This document shows, in pieces, positions 15,403 through 38,293 of a stretch of DNA of 64,000 nt. The stretch lies in the NCBI GenBank assembly GCA_963714965.1, contig CAVQQG010000001.1, positions 1,480,653 to 1,544,652 on the forward strand. Direction: 5' to 3'. How positions within the stretch are numbered: position 1 is the first letter of the stretch; each line of letters begins with the position of its first letter. The stretch is from an uncultured Planctomycetia bacterium. GTDB taxonomy: Bacteria; Planctomycetota; Planctomycetia; Pirellulales; Pirellulaceae. Under the pieces are notes generated by a model. That model saw only the letters and a list, made by a program, of their open reading frames with translations. It had not been told where the DNA came from and made no database searches. The translations under genes and the position numbers were made by a program.

Positions 15403-16029
15403 CTAATGCTGATGGCGGGTGGTGAATCCCTGCTGCTGCAGCCAGTCCTGCCAGCCGTGGGCCGTGGGACAATCCGGGCAGCCCACCGTCTTCCAGTCCG
15501 GACAGGTAATCTCCAGATCCATGTGCCCGTTGTGATCGGTGCGCCGCACCTGACAGCCCAGCATATCCAGAACCTGGCAGGTGTATTCGGCCTCGTCGGC
15601 ATTGTGAACGTGCAAGGTTCGCGGCGCGGTTAACTGATAACTGACACGCGACAATTTCATGTCCGGTGACGGATCAACAATCAGCGTCAACATACCCTGC
15701 TGGACCAGCCACTGGCTCCACTGCTCCACTTGCTCGTCGGTTTCCAGGGTGATTTGTTTCCAGGTCGGACTGCGAAAGCGGAGATCGATATGCCCGTCAT
15801 GCTGCGAGCGGTTCACTTCGCATCCGATTTTGGTCAAGGTTTGTTCGGCGCTATCGGCCTGGTTGACGTCATGAAAGTGGGCCGTCTTCCAGTCGGCCAG
15901 GCGAAAGCCAATGATTTTCCGGGCCGTGGCGCTGTCGCGGGTGGCGGAAGCATTGCTGGCCTGTTGGGCCGCCAGGTTGCCGGCCAGCGGCCACGCCGCC
16001 ACGGCCAGTACGATCAGTCGATGCATCAT
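15403..16029 (-). CDS. secreted hypothetical protein with an internal tandem domain duplication
   Basis: Signal peptide. Two copies of a motif with a GC.V.R..H.GH.DL core (GCEVNRSQHDGHIDL... / GCQVRRTDHNGHMDL...), each ending W..WL.QQG. Confidence 0.55.
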   Translation of the reverse strand: MMHRLIVLAVAAWPLAGNLAAQQASNASATRDSATARKIIGFRLADWKTAHFHDVNQADSAEQTLTKIGCEVNRSQHDGHIDLRFRSPTWKQITLETDEQVEQWSQWLVQQGMLTLIVDPSPDMKLSRVSYQLTAPRTLHVHNADEAEYTCQVLDMLGCQVRRTDHNGHMDLEITCPDWKTVGCPDCPTAHGWQDWLQQQGFTTRHQH

Positions 16030-16181
16030 CGGAACTCGGTCTCCAAACAGGTCGAGGGAATTACAGGGCGGCAGGGTACCCCAATTGCGAGCGGGTCAGC
16101 AAGACGAATCGGGCCCCAAAAACGCGTTCGCGGGCCAGCGGCCGGGCGGCAGCCGTTGTTCCCCTGGGACAACCTGATATC

Positions 16182-17465
16182 ATGACTCGCGATTGGCGAC
16201 CGAAACCTGAATTTGCCTGCGAGAACGGAATGTCCGGTCAAATCCTGATTCGAAACCTGCCCCCGGCGACCCGCACCTGGTTGCGTCGGGAATGCCACCG
16301 GCAAAACGTGTCGCGCAATTCGCTGGTGCTTTCTGTGCTGCAGCAAGCCATGGGATCGGGCCGCGAGCCGCCCCGGTTCGACGAGCGGCCTGTCGCCGAA
16401 ACACCGGGCAACGCGGCCGGTGGCGGTTTGCCGTTTTCATTTATCGATCTGTTTTCAGGAATCGGTGGATTGCGACTCGGCTTGCAGGCGGTGGGCGGCC
16501 GTTGCCGGTTTTCCTGCGAAATCGACCGCTTTGCCCGCCGTACCTACCACGCCTGGTTTGGCGAAACCCCCGCCCAGGATATTCGGGATTTTGCCTCGGG
16601 AACCGGGATTCCGCCGCATGATGTGCTGGCCGCCGGTTTTCCCTGTCAGCCGTTTTCGATTGCTGGTGTCTCCAAAAAGAAAAGCCTCGGCCGGGACCAC
16701 GGTTTTCAGGACAAGGCCCAGGGGACGCTGTTTTTTCATCTGGCTACCATCGTCGAAGCCACCCGACCGGCAGTGCTGTTGCTGGAAAATGTCAAAAACC
16801 TGCGTACGCACAACCGGGGCGACACGTGGCGGACGATCTCCGGGCGGCTGGCAGACCTGGGCTATGTCGTATTCGACCAGATCATCGACGCGGCTGACTA
16901 CGTCCCCCAGCATCGGGAACGGATCTTTATCGCCGGTTTTCGTCGGGACATCTTTGGAGACACTCCCCCCTTTCGGTTCCCGGACCCCCCCGCCGGGGCA
17001 CCGCCGGTGCTGGACGACATCCTGCTGACAGACAAGCAGGTTTCCGACAAGTACGTGTTGTCAGACCACCTGTGGCAATACCTGCAGGACTACGCGCGGC
17101 GGCATCAGGCGCGGGGCAACGGATTTGGTTACGGCCTGGCAGATCGAACGGGAATCACGCGAACCCTGAGTGCCCGATACTACAAGGATGGGTCGGAGAT
17201 CCTGATCCCGCGTGGACCGCGACGCAATCCGCGGCGACTGACTCCGCTGGAAGCTGGCCGGCTGATGGGATTTCCCGAGGACCTGGTTCAGCAGCAAGTC
17301 GTGTCGGATAGCCAGGCCTACAAACAATTCGGTAATGCCGTAGTCCCTGGCGTCGTGCAAGCTGTCGCCGAACAGATCGCTGCCGTCATGCGCTGGCAGC
17401 TGGGGCGGCGAAACCACGGATGCCTGCTGACACCGGCACCGTTGCAGCAGATCAGCGGCGTCTAA
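16182..17465 (+). CDS. dcm: DNA (cytosine-5)-methyltransferase with an N-terminal ribbon-helix-helix-like domain
   Basis: C5-MTase motifs I (FIDLFSGIGGLRLG), IV (GFPCQPFS) and the ENV motif. The N-terminal 45 aa (ILIRNLPPATRTWLRRE...SLVLSVLQQA) look like an Arc/MetJ or antitoxin RHH domain. Confidence 0.85.
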   Translation: MTRDWRPKPEFACENGMSGQILIRNLPPATRTWLRRECHRQNVSRNSLVLSVLQQAMGSGREPPRFDERPVAETPGNAAGGGLPFSFIDLFSGIGGLRLGLQAVGGRCRFSCEIDRFARRTYHAWFGETPAQDIRDFASGTGIPPHDVLAAGFPCQPFSIAGVSKKKSLGRDHGFQDKAQGTLFFHLATIVEATRPAVLLLENVKNLRTHNRGDTWRTISGRLADLGYVVFDQIIDAADYVPQHRERIFIAGFRRDIFGDTPPFRFPDPPAGAPPVLDDILLTDKQVSDKYVLSDHLWQYLQDYARRHQARGNGFGYGLADRTGITRTLSARYYKDGSEILIPRGPRRNPRRLTPLEAGRLMGFPEDLVQQQVVSDSQAYKQFGNAVVPGVVQAVAEQIAAVMRWQLGRRNHGCLLTPAPLQQISGV

Positions 17466-17617
17466 AACGATCGACCGGCCTGTCCGGCTGCCATGCCATT
17501 TGTCAGGCGTCCGGGAAAAGAGGGTCCGGCGGCCGCCTGCGGGGAAAAAAAACAGGGCGCCGACAGGCCATGACACCTGCCGACGCCCGCACAGTGACGT
17601 CGCCATTGGGGAACGGT

Positions 17618-18895
17618 TTATTTCAGCATGCCGCCCATTTCCCGCAACAGGGATTCGATTTGCTGGTGATTTTGCGGCGTTTGCAGGATCAGCAGCGAGA
17701 CCGCGGGCGCCGTGATCTGGATCGATTCGTCCAGCCACGAGTCCGGCGCTATCTTCGACTTGAGATGCTGCATCAGCCGCAACGTCGAGCTGGCCACGGG
17801 CGGGGCAATCAGATCGCCCACGTAATAATGCCGCCAGGTCCGTTGTTCGGCAGGCAGCGGCACTGGACGAAACGGCTGTTGCGTCTCGGCCCAGGGTCGC
17901 AGGGGTTTCGATTCCCACGCCGCGGGTTGCAGTTGTCCTTCGCCGCTCCAGGACGCGGCCAGCCGCTGCTCCGCGCGGGACTGGTTGGCGGGCGAGGTTT
18001 GGCAACTTTGTAACTGGTGCTCCAGTTGGCGGACTTGCTGTTGCAACTCATGGATCCGGTCCATCTCGCTGACGACCGGCAACGTGGGGGTCAGTCGCGA
18101 CTCCCACGCCACTCCCTCGACCGGCCGCCGCCTGGCCGGCGGTTCGGTCGGCTGGAATTCCTGTTGCAGGTGCCGGGATAAAAACTGCAAACTTTCGTTG
18201 GTCTGCTGCAGTTCCTGCCGGGTCTGGATGATCATGCGGCGGGTTTCGGCCATCTCGAAATTCAATTGCGACAGGTCGGTCTGCGCGGGGGGCATCACGT
18301 GAAACGCCGTTGACGGTTCGGCGGCCATGGCCGCCCGGTGGGCCTGATCGGCCGCCGATTCCAGGGCCATCCCCAGGACCTGCCGAACATGCTGCGGATC
18401 GCGCGGCTGACGGGTCAGATATTCGGTCAGCTCGGTCGCCAGCTGGTCCCGCCGGGCGGACAATTCGTAACCGTTTTCGCGCAGGAACGACACCGCACCC
18501 GGAAGGGGTCGGTTGGTGGCAAGTTGACGGTTCAGCGGGGTGCCATTGTCGTCCGTGGCGGCGGGGCCGGGTGTGCTCGACGCCACGTGTGGCAGGCCGA
18601 TTCCCGTGTCATGCGGGCAACGTCCGCTACCTTGCGGGCAATCAGCAGCGCATTTCGGGCAATCATCAGCGCATTGCGGGCAATCAGCAGCGCATTGCGG
18701 GCAATCATCAGCGCATTGCGGGCAATCATCAGCGCATTGCGGGCAATCATCAGCGCATTGCGGGCAATCAGCAGCGCATTGCGGGCAATCAGCAGCGGAT
18801 TGCGGGCAATCAGCAGCGCATTGCGGGCAAAGGTTGCCGCAGTGGGGGCAACCGCCTTCGTGACAATCCCCACCCGGCAACGCCTGGCCAACCAC
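17618..18895 (-). CDS. Cys-rich heptad-repeat / coiled-coil protein, reading frame probably disrupted upstream
   Basis: N-terminus is 9-10 copies of [A/D]DCPQCA encoded by the 21-bp repeat; C-terminal two thirds are coiled coil. A signal peptide and further Cys-rich segments lie in two other frames upstream (to 19199). Confidence 0.5.
   Translation of the reverse strand: MVGQALPGGDCHEGGCPHCGNLCPQCAADCPQSAADCPQCAADCPQCADDCPQCADDCPQCADDCPQCAADCPQCADDCPKCAADCPQGSGRCPHDTGIGLPHVASSTPGPAATDDNGTPLNRQLATNRPLPGAVSFLRENGYELSARRDQLATELTEYLTRQPRDPQHVRQVLGMALESAADQAHRAAMAAEPSTAFHVMPPAQTDLSQLNFEMAETRRMIIQTRQELQQTNESLQFLSRHLQQEFQPTEPPARRRPVEGVAWESRLTPTLPVVSEMDRIHELQQQVRQLEHQLQSCQTSPANQSRAEQRLAASWSGEGQLQPAAWESKPLRPWAETQQPFRPVPLPAEQRTWRHYYVGDLIAPPVASSTLRLMQHLKSKIAPDSWLDESIQITAPAVSLLILQTPQNHQQIESLLREMGGMLK
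18634..18830. repeat. about 9.5 near-identical copies of a 21-bp tandem repeat, gcgggcaatca(g/t)cagcgcatt
   Basis: Counted directly in the sequence. Only a G/T alternation at repeat position 11 (plus one other change in the first copy); one C>G change in copy 8. Confidence 0.95.
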
Positions 18896-37636: not shown

Positions 37637-38293
37637 TCAGGCACTGGTTCGACGGCGCTTCAAGCAAGCCAGCCCCACGCTGATGGACCACAGACAGGCG
37701 CAGCCGGCTGGTTCGGGAATGGCTGCGCTGTCGACAAAGGTCCGAAAGCCATGATCCTGGGACGGCGTCAGGAAAGCCCAGGGTCCCGGCGGGTTGATCT
37801 GGCGGGCCACGGCGTCACCCGCCGCGTAATCTTCGGGCTGCCCGGTATCCCCGTCAACCAGCAAAAAATAAGGCCCAATGGAACTGGAGGTGCTGATCCC
37901 AAATGCCAAAACATCGTTGACATCCACCGCAATGGCGGCCGCGCTGATATCAAAGGAAACAAATCCCGCTGTGCCCAGCGGAACCAGCGCTTCCGGGATG
38001 GACACGCTGACCAGCGGCGCTCCGTCGGGGACTCCACCGAGTGTGTTGTAAACGTTGAGTACCGGGTCCGCGGTCGGGTCAAAAATACCCCCCAGGCGAA
38101 ACATCAATACATCGATATGGTCCAGGGTGCCGGCAACACCCACCGTAAAGGTCTGGCCCACCTCGTTGACATTTCCGTTGGTGCTGTTGGCGGCTCCGCT
38201 GACAAAAACGTGCTGCTGGTCCAAAACGACGTCTCCATAAGCCGCTGCCGCGACCAGCAGGCTGATGGCAGTGATTGGCAATCGATAAATCAT
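37637..38293 (-). CDS. PEP-CTERM sorting-domain secreted protein
   Basis: Signal peptide. C-terminus IPEPAG + TM + KRRRTSA matches the PEP-CTERM exosortase signal. Confidence 0.7.
   Translation of the reverse strand: MIYRLPITAISLLVAAAAYGDVVLDQQHVFVSGAANSTNGNVNEVGQTFTVGVAGTLDHIDVLMFRLGGIFDPTADPVLNVYNTLGGVPDGAPLVSVSIPEALVPLGTAGFVSFDISAAAIAVDVNDVLAFGISTSSSIGPYFLLVDGDTGQPEDYAAGDAVARQINPPGPWAFLTPSQDHGFRTFVDSAAIPEPAGCACLWSISVGLACLKRRRTSA

What the first reader, a model, noticed from the sequence alone, without database searches (positions are those of the whole stretch)
16182..17465. Orphan C5 cytosine methyltransferase fused to an N-terminal ribbon-helix-helix-like domain
All the core Dcm motifs are present, but the first 45 residues (ILIRNLPPATRTWLRRECHRQNVSRNSLVLSVLQQA) look like an Arc/MetJ or antitoxin RHH DNA-binding module. 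No restriction endonuclease candidate flanks it: a secreted repeat protein lies upstream and a convergent Cys-repeat gene downstream. This suggests either an autoregulated orphan methylase (compare the N-terminal repressor region of M.SsoII) or the remnant of an RM or toxin-antitoxin-like module.
Basis: partly seen in the sequence, partly recalled or inferred. Interest (0 to 1): 0.5.

Follow-up and report, generated by a model that had tools for sequence, protein, structure and literature searches.

The report
Orphaned EcoRII-type methylase with RHH repressor domain
This gene encodes a cytosine DNA methylase carrying a small built-in DNA-binding (ribbon-helix-helix) domain that most likely switches off its own promoter; relatives in many phyla use the same fusion to control a complete EcoRII-type restriction system, but this genome kept only the methylase.

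Summary
Window 16182-17465 (+) is an intact ORF with a complete C5-cytosine methyltransferase domain (Pfam E 1e-75; closest solved structure Shigella Dcm) preceded by a real ribbon-helix-helix (RHH) module. The true start is most likely ATG 16230, not 16182.

Relatives change the interpretation. The RHH-methylase fusion occurs in at least seven phyla. In the more distant relatives it is the first gene of an M, EcoRII-type endonuclease, Vsr cassette. The window gene and its nine closest sampled relatives, mostly marine Planctomycetaceae-like, lack both partners. Decay intermediates exist (endonuclease fragment plus vsr; vsr only).

Upstream of the fusion genes lies a conserved composite palindrome, CTGGGA-N6-TGATATCA-TGATATCA-N6-TCCCAG, overlapping the -10. 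The box is about 490-fold enriched there. The window keeps only the left arm and one box (16164-16183).

Best reading: an orphaned, probably CCWGG-specific, Dcm-like methylase that represses its own promoter through the RHH. This parallels M.SsoII and M.EcoRII, which use an HTH.

I found no paper describing an RHH version, though it is common in databases. A conserved linker motif resembling a beta-clamp-binding motif is an untested lead, and it is degenerate in the window protein.

The parts
16156..16161 (+). -35-like hexamer TTGTTC (weak, 3 of 6), 16 nt upstream of the -10-like hexamer
   Evidence: Read. The same TTGnnn-16/18 nt-TA(T/G)CAT geometry recurs in L003 (TTGCCA), L010 (TTGACA), L013 (TTGACC), L091 (TTGACT) and L018 (TTGCAT). 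GTTG is conserved with L001. The strict consensus scan found no promoter here.
16163..16167 (.). CCTGG, a complete CCWGG site overlapping the left operator arm
   Evidence: Sequence. In relatives the arm is almost never a complete CCWGG: 0 of 21 right arms and 2 of 19 left arms. The window supplies one of the two complete left arms.
16164..16169 (.). Left operator arm CTGGGA (continues as CTGGGACAA)
   Evidence: Arm hexamers occur at 10.5 per kb upstream of 31 fusion genes against 1.2 per kb background. It is part of the 18-nt block identical between the window and L001 in otherwise diverged intergenic DNA.
16175..16182 (.). Box 1, the 8-bp palindrome TGATATCA; proposed binding site of the RHH dimer
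   Evidence: The strict box TG[AC]TA[TG]CA occurs 27 times in 2,938 nt upstream of fusion genes against 6 times in 321,678 nt of background. There is only one other copy in the 64-kb window (37945, apparently inside a coding region and without arms). The second box and the right arm seen in relatives have decayed here.
16178..16183 (+). -10-like hexamer TATCAT preceded by TG (extended -10), inside box 1
   Evidence: Inference from the sequence and from the conserved geometry in relatives.
16230..17465 (+). Coding sequence of the RHH-methyltransferase fusion, 411 aa plus stop (most likely start)
   Evidence: P0001 is 100% identical and 411 aa long. The homologues' N-termini align on this Met.
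16230..16358 (+). Ribbon-helix-helix domain (residues 1-43: strand QILIRNLP, helix A 12-25, helix B 29-42)
16359..16433 (+). Disordered linker (residues 44-68). It contains EPPRFD (16365-16382), a degenerate copy of the family motif GPSLFD / QLxLF
   Evidence: pLDDT is 48-60.
16434..17378 (+). C5-cytosine methyltransferase domain of the Dcm/EcoRII subfamily, with all catalytic motifs intact
17379..17462 (+). C-terminal tail, low-confidence beyond the last helix (which ends at residue 393), carrying the family-conserved motif (N/H)GCLL (17412-17429)
17555..17588 (-). Strong hairpin terminator between the two convergent genes. It marks the 3' limit of the unit and leaves no room for a downstream endonuclease gene
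   Evidence: 14 pairs, 10 G-C, T-run.

Best explanation
The gene (CDS 16230-17465) encodes three parts: an N-terminal ribbon-helix-helix DNA-binding domain, a flexible linker of about 25 residues, and a catalytically intact C5-cytosine methyltransferase of the Dcm/EcoRII subfamily. Its target is probably CCWGG.

Across the family this fusion is the first gene of M, R(EcoRII-type), Vsr cassettes. The promoter of those cassettes is embedded in a composite palindrome, CTGGGA-N6-TGATATCA-(0-1)-TGATATCA-N6-TCCCAG.

Proposed mechanism (inferred). RHH dimers bind the central 8-bp boxes, which overlap the -10, and exclude RNA polymerase. Methylase production (and, where present, the co-transcribed endonuclease and Vsr) is thereby autorepressed. 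The tethered methylase domains probably dock on the near-cognate outer arms, as proposed for M.SsoII.

In the lineage of this window the endonuclease and vsr genes were lost. A solitary, resident methylase remains, with the promoter, the left arm and one box. It therefore most likely works as a self-limiting Dcm-like orphan methylase.

Shown: domain identities, the RM context in relatives, the orphan context here, and the conserved operator-like element. Inferred: DNA binding by the RHH, autorepression, CCWGG specificity, and the biological role of the orphan (epigenetic marking and/or immunity against EcoRII-type systems, as shown for E. coli Dcm).
For: Domains:
- Methylase.
- RHH.

The fusion is conserved. 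About 80-90 of the 120 best homologues carry the module (79 by a strict pattern). The RHH profile finds 369 cluster representatives at E <= 1e-3, and those inspected are fragments of the same fusion.

RM origin:
- Pfam EcoRII-N/EcoRII-C genes lie directly downstream of RHH-bearing methylases in L009, L010, L013, L015, L016, L017 and L022; the L018 and L019 genes were identified by tblastn. Precomputed Pfam shows the same for L169-L171.
- Vsr homologues follow in most of these loci.
- Decay series: L014 and L092 have an endonuclease fragment plus vsr; L012, L093 and L096 have vsr only.

Orphan state:
- Neither partner occurs in the window, L001, L003, L005, L007, L008, L011, L168, L172 or L173, and the neighbours differ in each.
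- The seven orphans included in the NJ tree form one clade nested among RM-linked RHH forms.
- GC content is the same as in the flanks.

Operator:
- (about 490-fold box enrichment, about 9-fold arm enrichment).
- The symmetry survives base changes: TGATATCA becomes TGCTAGCA, and TGATAGCA pairs with TGCTATCA.
- The centre co-varies with the type of N-terminal domain (type-1 RHH, type-2 RHH, HTH), while the arms stay constant.

Precedent: the N-terminal domains of M.SsoII/M.Ecl18kI bind a palindromic operator and repress by steric exclusion, while the methylase domains contact flanking DNA (PMC2760811, PMC3978073).

Specificity:
- The TRD is nearly identical in places to Dcm.
- Partner endonucleases are EcoRII-type.
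- CCWGG O/E in the window is 0.82 (z -3.6), while three control pentamers are 0.99-1.01.
Against: - There is no experimental evidence.
- The Pfam RHH hit is below the gathering score, and Foldseek E-values for a 54-residue model are weak.
- In the window only half of the operator survives (one box, one arm). Autorepression may therefore be weak or lost, and the conserved 18-mer shared with L001 could be kept only because it contains the promoter.
- The -35 is poor, and the consensus promoter scan found nothing.
- Which protein part reads the boxes and which reads the arms cannot be decided from sequence.
- Only 64 kb of a contig of at least 2.2 Mb was visible, so an unlinked endonuclease or vsr cannot be excluded.
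- The NJ tree has no support values. An RM-linked member (P0032, 62% identity) has an N-terminus close to that of the orphan P0014, so several independent losses or transfers are possible.
- The CCWGG depletion is modest and not specific proof.
Confidence: 0.7

Rival explanations
1. The methylase is not orphan. It still protects the genome against a cognate endonuclease encoded elsewhere on the chromosome, with or without an unlinked vsr.
For: Only 64 kb of a contig of at least 2.2 Mb could be inspected. CCWGG is mildly depleted, which is also what restriction avoidance would give.
Against: In every RM-linked relative the endonuclease is immediately adjacent and co-directional. None is present in the window or in the flanks (roughly 4-8 kb on each side) of nine close relatives. 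In the window the left operator arm is a complete CCWGG, which is avoided in relatives.
Confidence: 0.1
2. The RHH domain is an evolutionary leftover with no regulatory role in the orphan. The conserved upstream 18-mer is simply the promoter, and the gene is expressed constitutively.
For: The second box and the right arm are lost in the window, L001, L007 and L173. Among eight orphans the RHH is less conserved than the methylase core: mean pairwise identity 0.43 against 0.72.
Against: The RHH is still more conserved than the linker (0.43 against 0.24) and is recognised by the family HMM in every orphan at E 1e-5 to 1e-28, apart from L011 at E 4e-3. No orphan has lost it by deletion. Some orphans keep a perfect two-box palindrome (L003, L172) or a perfect single-box palindrome (L168). 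One 8-bp palindromic box is enough for one RHH dimer.
Confidence: 0.17
3. The RHH does not regulate its own gene. Instead it targets the methylase, or acts as a repressor, at other loci, making it a global regulator or a recruiter of site-directed methylation.
For: Fusing a DNA-binding domain to a methylase could in principle direct methylation. A second TGATATCA exists in the window at 37945.
Against: Boxes are concentrated almost exclusively in front of the fusion gene itself: 27 against 6 in 320 kb of flanking DNA. The second window copy lies in what appears to be coding sequence, lacks arms, and falls within chance expectation (8 of 100 shuffles gave 2 or more).
Confidence: 0.05
4. The N-terminal module is the remnant of a type II toxin-antitoxin antitoxin (VapB/FitA-like) that became fused to a neighbouring methylase.
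For: The best Pfam and PDB sequence matches are antitoxin RHH domains.
Against: No PIN or other toxin gene is adjacent in any of about 35 loci. The match covers only the DNA-binding fold, not a toxin-binding tail. The module is found essentially only on this methylase family. A homologous second RHH type sits on the same methylase chassis in other phyla.
Confidence: 0.03

Closest known systems
M.SsoII / M.Ecl18kI (also M.MspI, M.ScrFIA): C5-methyltransferases with an N-terminal regulatory DNA-binding region
   Same: The plan is the same: DNA-binding domain, flexible linker, C5-methylase. A palindromic operator in the gene's own promoter is distinct from the methylation site, and repression is by steric exclusion of RNA polymerase. 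Methylase domains are thought to sit on DNA flanking the regulatory site (PMC2760811, PMC3978073). The methylase cores belong to the same broad CCNGG/CCWGG-type subfamily.
   Different: The regulatory domain there is a helix-turn-helix (434-repressor-like), which binds as two monomers to a 15-bp palindrome. Here it is an RHH, an obligate dimer fold, and the operator is a composite of about 40 bp with 8-bp boxes and separate arms. In SsoII the R and M genes are divergent and M binding indirectly activates R. In relatives of this gene, M, R and vsr are co-directional. In the window there is no R at all.
M.EcoRII with R.EcoRII (plasmid N3)
   Same: The partner endonucleases of the relatives have both EcoRII-N and EcoRII-C domains. 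M.EcoRII is autogenously regulated at the level of transcription (Som and Friedman 1993/1994, cited in PMC2760811 and PMC3874152).
   Different: M.EcoRII is described as having an HTH-type N-terminal region (PMC2760811), not an RHH. I could not read the original papers. The specificity of the window enzyme is untested.
E. coli Dcm with Vsr
   Same: It is the closest solved structure and the best NCBIfam subfamily hit. Like the window gene, it is a chromosomal solitary CCWGG methylase related to M.EcoRII. Dcm is reported to attenuate host killing after loss of EcoRII (PMC3874152).
   Different: dcm overlaps vsr, whereas the window gene has no vsr nearby. The 85-residue Dcm N-terminus is unrelated to the RHH. 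The PRK10458 score is 338 bits against a cut-off of 710, so the window protein is not an equivalog.
RHH repressors and RHH antitoxins (Arc, MetJ, CopG, omega, FitA, VapB)
   Same: The strand-helix-helix topology is the same. Tandem 8-bp palindromic boxes recall the MetJ met-boxes (my own knowledge). In RM-linked relatives the gene order 'RHH-bearing protector first, killer second, autorepressed' mirrors type II TA operons, an analogy drawn in general terms in PMC3874152.
   Different: Here the RHH is fused to an enzyme of about 340 residues rather than being a small stand-alone protein or carrying a toxin-binding tail. No toxin partner is present.
C (controller) proteins of type II RM systems
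   Same: They are dedicated DNA-binding regulators that time and limit RM gene expression from operators (C-boxes) in the promoter.
   Different: C proteins are separate Xre-type HTH proteins, usually co-transcribed with R, and act as activator-repressors. None is present in these cassettes.

Membership tests
C5-cytosine DNA methyltransferase (PF00145 / TIGR00675) | Profile match above the curated cut-off across the whole catalytic domain | tested here: met
   PF00145: 255 bits against 22. TIGR00675: 264.8 bits against 100.65.
C5-cytosine DNA methyltransferase (PF00145 / TIGR00675) | Catalytic motifs I (FxGxGG), IV (PCQ), VI (ENV), VIII (QxRxR) and X (GN) are intact | tested here: met
   All lie in columns invariant over 66 sequences, and the window protein carries the consensus residue. 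The fold matches Dcm and M.HhaI.
C5-cytosine DNA methyltransferase (PF00145 / TIGR00675) | Methyl-transfer activity on DNA | not testable with these tools
   Needs a methylome or an enzyme assay.
Dcm / M.EcoRII subfamily (CCWGG-specific; NCBIfam PRK10458) | Score above the subfamily cut-off | tested here: not met
   338.3 bits against a cut-off of 710. It is nevertheless the best-scoring subfamily and the best PDB match (3lx6/3me5, E 1e-83).
Dcm / M.EcoRII subfamily (CCWGG-specific; NCBIfam PRK10458) | Recognition of CCWGG | tested here: inconclusive
   The evidence is indirect: TRD stretches nearly identical to Dcm, EcoRII-N/EcoRII-C partners in relatives, and CCWGG O/E of 0.82 with controls near 1.0. 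CCNGG or another variant is not excluded.
Ribbon-helix-helix (Arc/MetJ/CopG) superfamily | Strand-helix-helix topology of about 45 residues | tested here: met
   AlphaFold gives helices 12-25 and 29-42 after an extended N-terminal segment, pLDDT 90-94. Nearly all of the best-ranked Foldseek matches are RHH proteins; CopG gives TM 0.67-0.83 and rmsd 1.6 A.
Ribbon-helix-helix (Arc/MetJ/CopG) superfamily | Significant sequence-profile match to an RHH family | tested here: inconclusive
   PF22513 scores 23-25 bits against a gathering score of 27, and 15 of 42 family members hit it. The family profile against PDB gives VapB-type RHH at E 4e-4 and 1.7e-3.
Ribbon-helix-helix (Arc/MetJ/CopG) superfamily | Dimerisation through an antiparallel beta-ribbon that reads the major groove | not testable with these tools
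   Only monomer prediction was available.
Methyltransferases that autoregulate through an N-terminal DNA-binding domain (M.SsoII type) | Separate N-terminal DNA-binding domain joined by a flexible linker | tested here: met
   The domain is an RHH rather than an HTH, so this is analogy, not homology.
Methyltransferases that autoregulate through an N-terminal DNA-binding domain (M.SsoII type) | Palindromic operator in the gene's own promoter, distinct from the methylation site | tested here: met
   Met at the family level. In the window only the left arm and one box are present (16164-16183).
Methyltransferases that autoregulate through an N-terminal DNA-binding domain (M.SsoII type) | Binding of the protein to the operator, and repression | not testable with these tools
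   Needs gel-shift, footprinting or reporter assays.
Solitary (orphan) methyltransferase | No cognate endonuclease gene linked to the methylase | tested here: met
   tblastn with five EcoRII-type endonucleases and with Vsr finds nothing in the 64-kb window. The flanking genes are unrelated.
Solitary (orphan) methyltransferase | No cognate endonuclease anywhere in the genome | not testable with these tools
   The rest of the contig (at least 2.2 Mb) could not be fetched.
Type II toxin-antitoxin module (VapBC/FitAB type) | Adjacent toxin gene, and an antitoxin with a toxin-binding tail | tested here: not met
   No such gene is present in the window or in about 35 related loci.
Beta-clamp-binding proteins (QL[SD]LF / QxxLxF motif) | Consensus motif in a disordered region | tested here: not met
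   The window protein has EPPRFD, with Arg at the Leu position. Many relatives have GPSLFD, QLNLF, QLGLF or QLSLF. Binding itself cannot be tested here.

The most novel reading that the evidence does not exclude
The only conserved element of the otherwise hypervariable linker is a short motif (GPSLFD, ELPLFD; in some members literally QLNLF, QLGLF or QLSLF). It may be a beta-sliding-clamp-binding motif. If so, this family of bacterial C5-methylases would be tethered to the replisome and would methylate nascent DNA at the fork. That would be a bacterial counterpart of the DNMT1-PCNA interaction, and it would protect new DNA from the partner EcoRII-type endonuclease. The window protein (EPPRFD) would then be a member that lost the motif after losing the endonuclease.
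Probability: 0.15. Interest if true: 0.8.

Novelty: new variant of a known kind. Interest (0 to 1): 0.5.

Why it matters
Self-regulating methylases have so far been described with helix-turn-helix domains (SsoII, Ecl18kI, MspI, EcoRII, ScrFI).

In this sample of one methylase subfamily, RHH modules of two related types are at least as frequent as HTH ones. About 29 plus 27 of roughly 170 loci carry an RHH, against roughly 20 HTH-type N-termini judged by eye. Each domain type comes with its own centre sequence inside a shared pair of near-cognate arms.

That gives three things:
- a ready-made natural experiment on how a repressor module and an enzyme domain co-operate on one operator;
- an RM cassette organised like a type II toxin-antitoxin operon, with the RHH-bearing protector first and the killer second;
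- a visible decay path from a full RM cassette to a lineage-wide orphan methylase in marine Planctomycetaceae-like bacteria, parallel to the origin of E. coli Dcm.

For genome annotation, genes of this kind carry only the generic label 'DNA (cytosine-5-)-methyltransferase' in the source names seen here, and the regulatory domain and operator go unremarked.

Tried and rejected
- Repeat search in the window alone and the sigma-70 consensus scan showed nothing convincing upstream. The operator became visible only by comparing orthologous loci.
It only added more distant loci.
The cluster look-up gave no name either.
- The RHH profile search of 1.84 billion representatives mostly returned truncated or frameshifted fragments of the same fusions. 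It therefore says little about stand-alone relatives.
- The CCWGG deamination-product words (CTWGG/CCWAG) are confounded by general CTAG avoidance and were discarded.
- Any relation between the beta-strand sequence and the box variant (TGATATCA against TGCTAGCA) was looked at by eye only. No clear pattern emerged.
- An mRNA-hairpin explanation of the palindrome was rejected. The predicted -10 lies inside or downstream of the left half, so the left arm would not be transcribed.
- The toxin-antitoxin remnant idea was rejected for lack of any toxin gene.
- Pfam does not recognise the second RHH type. Profile-profile comparison was needed.
- The original EcoRII regulation papers (PMC332081, PMC413726) are not held.
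Full report
**1. What is in the sequence**

The ORF 16182-17465 (+) is real and intact. Residues 85-399 of the 427-aa ORF match Pfam DNA_methylase (E 1.2e-75) and NCBIfam TIGR00675 well above their cut-offs. The best subfamily model is PRK10458 (Dcm), but at 338 bits against a cut-off of 710. The closest solved structures are the Shigella Dcm entries 3lx6/3me5 (E about 1e-83), followed by M.HhaI. In an alignment of 66 homologues, all catalytic motifs fall in invariant columns, so the enzyme looks active.

GC content matches the surroundings, so there is no sign of recent acquisition. Upstream is a divergent secreted 208-aa protein. Downstream is a convergent gene with a 21-bp tandem repeat encoding CPQCA(A/D)D units, separated from the methylase gene by a strong hairpin terminator.

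**2. The N-terminal module is an RHH**

Four lines of evidence agree:
- Alone, the segment hits Pfam FitA-like_RHH at E 2e-5 to 6e-5, slightly below the gathering score.
- A 42-sequence profile of the family's N-termini hits the RHH antitoxins 3h87_C and 7e4j_A (E 4e-4 and 1.7e-3), and Arc weakly.
- AlphaFold gives an extended segment followed by two helices (12-25, 29-42) at pLDDT 90-94, then a disordered linker.
- Nearly all of the best-ranked Foldseek matches of the 54-residue model are RHH proteins: CopG (TM up to 0.83, rmsd 1.6 A), TacA, CdbA, VapB, Arc, AmrZ, PutA and FitA. E-values are weak, as expected for so small a domain.

*Start codon.* The database copy P0001 (100% identical) and all homologues begin at the Met two to four residues before the beta-strand, which is ATG 16230 here. 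The upstream ATG at 16182 is part of the conserved element TGATATCATG and has no counterpart in the closest relative L001. The protein is therefore 411 aa, and the RHH is residues 1-43.

**3. The fusion is a family, and the family belongs to EcoRII-type RM cassettes**

About 80-90 of the 120 best protein hits carry the same module; 79 match a strict pattern. A scan of species-representative genomes finds the fusion in Planctomycetaceae, Fuerstiella, Phycisphaerae, Ca. Brocadia, Eisenbacteria, Sumerlaeaceae, Chthoniobacterales, Acidobacteriota, Anaerolineae and Alteromonadaceae.

In L009, L010, L013, L015-L019, L022 and several metagenomic loci, the gene immediately downstream and co-directional is an EcoRII-type endonuclease. 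Pfam EcoRII-C, usually with EcoRII-N, was confirmed for those submitted to Pfam, and tblastn identified the rest. The same holds for P0032, P0078 and P0096. A Vsr homologue usually follows (tblastn with E. coli Vsr).

Intermediates exist:
- L014 and L092 have a roughly 50-aa endonuclease fragment followed by vsr.
- L012, L093 and L096 have vsr only.

In contrast, ten loci have neither partner, and each has different housekeeping neighbours: the window, L001 (79% identity), L003 (69%), L168 (68%), L007 and L172 (67%), L173 (66%), L005 (65%), L008 and L011. tblastn with five EcoRII-type endonucleases and with Vsr finds nothing in the whole 64-kb window.

In a neighbour-joining tree of the methylase core, the seven orphans included form one clade nested inside the RM-linked RHH forms. 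Those in turn nest inside EcoRII-type methylases that carry other N-termini. The tree has no support values, and P0032 shows that the boundary is not clean.

It turns 'orphan' into 'orphaned'.

**4. A conserved operator**

Comparing the DNA in front of the fusion genes reveals a composite palindrome immediately before the Shine-Dalgarno sequence and start codon: CTGGGA-N6-TGATATCA-(0-1)-TGATATCA-N6-TCCCAG.
- It is perfect or nearly so in L003, L010, L015, L022, L169-L172 and others.
- Symmetric variants of the boxes occur: TGCTAGCA, and TGATAGCA paired with TGCTATCA.
- The strict box occurs 27 times in 2,938 nt of upstream DNA against 6 times in 321,678 nt of the same loci, about 490-fold.
- The arm hexamers are about 9-fold enriched.

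A TTGnnn hexamer lies directly 5' of the left arm, 16-18 nt before TA(T/G)CAT, which is the right part of box 1 and is preceded by TG. The promoter is therefore embedded in the left half of the palindrome. Because the left arm lies upstream of the predicted -10, an mRNA hairpin is unlikely. A DNA-binding protein is the natural reader of the symmetry.

In the window the following remain:
- -35-like TTGTTC (16156-16161);
- arm CTGGGA (16164-16169);
- box TGATATCA (16175-16182);
- -10-like TATCAT (16178-16183).

The second box and the right arm have decayed. The 18-mer GGGACAACCTGATATCAT is identical in L001 within otherwise diverged intergenic DNA. Other orphans range from a perfect two-box palindrome (L003, L172), through perfect or partial single-box forms (L168, L173, L007), to a single variant box (L005, L008, L011).

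**5. Which part reads what**

The 'RHH-less' loci in the sample turn out to carry other N-terminal modules:
- A second RHH type (MxKQIHIRLDD...QDCV) occurs in 27 loci, including Lacrimispora amygdalina and Extibacter muris. It is homologous to the first type by profile-profile comparison (probability 94%, E 1e-7) and hits the RHH proteins ORF E73, ORF56, AvtR and NikR in PDB.
- An HTH type is confirmed by Pfam.
- A roughly 85-residue Bacteroidota module is of unknown fold.

In front of all three characterised types the outer arms (CT)GGGAA ... TTCCCAG recur, but the centre differs: TGATATCA once or twice, GGTATA(A/T)A, or GTGTCAGAAAAA / TGACAT. The centre therefore co-varies with the variable DNA-binding domain, while the arms go with the constant methylase domain.

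The arms are one base short of CCWGG. The completing base is absent in 0 of 21 right arms and present in only 2 of 19 left arms, against a background of 18-26%. One of the two exceptions is the window itself (CCTGG, 16163-16167).

This matches what has been proposed experimentally for M.SsoII. There the N-terminal regions sit on the regulatory site while the methylase domains bind the flanking DNA, which blocks methylation and RNA polymerase access (PMC3978073, PMC2760811).

My model, all of it inference, is as follows. An RHH dimer sits on each central box. The two tethered methylase domains dock on the near-cognate arms. The -10 is occluded. Transcription of the M gene is autorepressed, and so presumably is that of the co-directional R and vsr genes, although co-transcription was not tested.

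**6. What the window gene does**

It most likely acts as a solitary, self-limiting, Dcm-like methylase.

*Specificity.* CCWGG is inferred from three observations:
- TRD stretches are nearly identical to Dcm.
- The partners in relatives are EcoRII-type.
- CCWGG is modestly depleted in the window (O/E 0.82, z -3.6), while CCSGG, GGWCC and GCWGC are 0.99-1.01. RM-linked relatives show 0.77 and the other orphans 0.91.

*Conservation.* Among eight orphans the RHH is more conserved than the linker but less than the enzyme core (mean pairwise identity 0.43, 0.24 and 0.72). This is consistent with a retained but relaxed function.

*Role.* The role of the orphan cannot be read from sequence. The precedent is E. 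coli Dcm, which attenuates killing by EcoRII (PMC3874152). An epigenetic role is equally possible.

**7. Comparison with what is known, and novelty**

The principle, a C5-methylase that represses its own promoter through an N-terminal DNA-binding domain, is established for SsoII, Ecl18kI, MspI, EcoRII and ScrFI. All of these are described as HTH (PMC2760811, PMC3978073, PMC3874152). My full-text searches found no description of an RHH-fused methylase or of this operator. The review of RM/TA regulation mentions RHH only for the TA regulators omega and PaaR.

The architecture is nevertheless common in sequence databases and is present in cultured Firmicutes. I therefore rate it a new variant of a known kind, and the window gene an orphaned member of it.

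**8. An untested lead**

The linker is hypervariable except for one motif right after the RHH: GPSLFD, GPTLFD or ELPLFD, and in one subgroup QLNLF, QLGLF, QLSLF or QLLLF.
- [GQ]xx[LIM]F occurs in 55 of 118 N-terminal regions, against 3.7 in shuffles.
- Qxx[LIM]F or Qxx[LIM]xF occurs in 28, against 3.7.

Close relatives without an RHH keep RTLFD or KQQTLPF at the extreme N-terminus. This suggests a partner-binding linear motif rather than part of the RHH fold. AlphaFold does not dock it on the methylase.

The sequences match the bacterial beta-clamp-binding consensus QL[SD]LF / QxxLxF (from my own knowledge; Dalrymple et al. 2001). I found no report of a clamp-binding bacterial DNA methylase.

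Two facts weaken the lead:
- The motif is weak in the more distant RHH-less members: 9 of 116 against a shuffle mean of 3.0, with a maximum of 9.
- It is degenerate in the window protein (EPPRFD).

I give the clamp reading about 15%.

Noticed in passing
window 16365-16382 (EPPRFD); relatives P0002-P0120, L009-L022: The otherwise hypervariable linker has one conserved short motif (GPSLFD, ELPLFD, QLNLF, QLGLF, QLSLF) that resembles the bacterial beta-clamp-binding motif. It is enriched about 8- to 15-fold over shuffles. It is degenerate in the window protein, where Leu is replaced by Arg.
   Followed up: partly
window 17412-17429; alignment A1 columns ~460-470: A conserved C-terminal tail motif, (N/D/G)GCLL(K), lies beyond the last methylase helix. 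It is present in 69 of 120 homologues and sits in a low-confidence (pLDDT about 50) segment. Its function is unknown.
   Followed up: no
L045, L050, L097, L102, L103, L116, L119, L129, L134, L136, L138, L143, L145 and others (upstream ~110 nt and first ~53 codons): A second RHH type (MxKQIHIRLDD...QDCV) is fused to the same methylase chassis, mainly in Firmicutes-like genomes. It has its own operator, GGGAA-N6-GGTATA(A/T)A-N6-TTCCCAG(G)AGG. Often a second copy of the arm-centre-arm element lies about 60 nt further upstream.
   Followed up: partly
L078, L083, L084, L153, L157, L158, L147, L065 upstream regions: HTH-type members share the same outer arms (GGGAA...TTCCCAG) with a different centre (GTGTCAGAAAAA or TGACAT repeats). 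The arm-proximal sequence GGGACAA in the window, L003 and L018 also resembles the published SsoII operator half-site AGGACAA.
   Followed up: partly
L023, L029, L033, L037, L038, L046, L064, L104, L106, L110 and others (N-terminal ~85 residues): Bacteroidota-type members carry a conserved N-terminal module (...LTHYLQNHKNGVSQYF...EPDFQYYLPIKWDIPFPP) with no Pfam match. It may be a further kind of regulatory domain.
   Followed up: no
L014 7193-7345; L092 3731-3886: EcoRII-type endonuclease fragments of about 50 residues sit between the methylase gene and an intact vsr. They appear to be snapshots of the endonuclease being lost while vsr is kept.
   Followed up: partly
L171 1-11212: Here the RHH-M/EcoRII cassette lies next to ParA, RepA_C and ArdC genes. 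It is followed by an SNF2 helicase, a stand-alone 140-aa EcoRII-N protein and an HATPase gene. This suggests a plasmid-borne or defence-island context.
   Followed up: no
window 17618-18895 (-), repeat 18632-18830: The convergent downstream gene contains 9.5 copies of a 21-bp tandem repeat (95% matches) encoding CPQCA(A/D)D heptads. It has no Pfam match, and the rest of the protein looks coiled-coil-like.
   Followed up: partly
window 15403-16029 (-); L001 7186-7809: The divergent upstream gene encodes a 208-aa protein with a signal peptide and what looks by eye like an internal two-fold repeat (…GC(E/Q)V(N/R)R…H(D/N)GH(I/M)DL…). It has no Pfam match. A gene of the same size and position is present in the closest relative.
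   Followed up: no
whole window: CCWGG is mildly under-represented (324 observed, 396 expected from a maximal-order Markov model), while CCSGG, GGWCC and GCWGC are at expectation.
   Followed up: partly
window 37945-37952: This is the only other TGATATCA in the window. It has no arms, apparently lies inside a coding region, and is within chance expectation.
   Followed up: yes
P0121 (5,807 aa): The top hit of the RHH profile search is a giant protein with ten partial matches to profile positions 3-21. It was not examined and is probably a repeat or low-complexity artefact.
   Followed up: no
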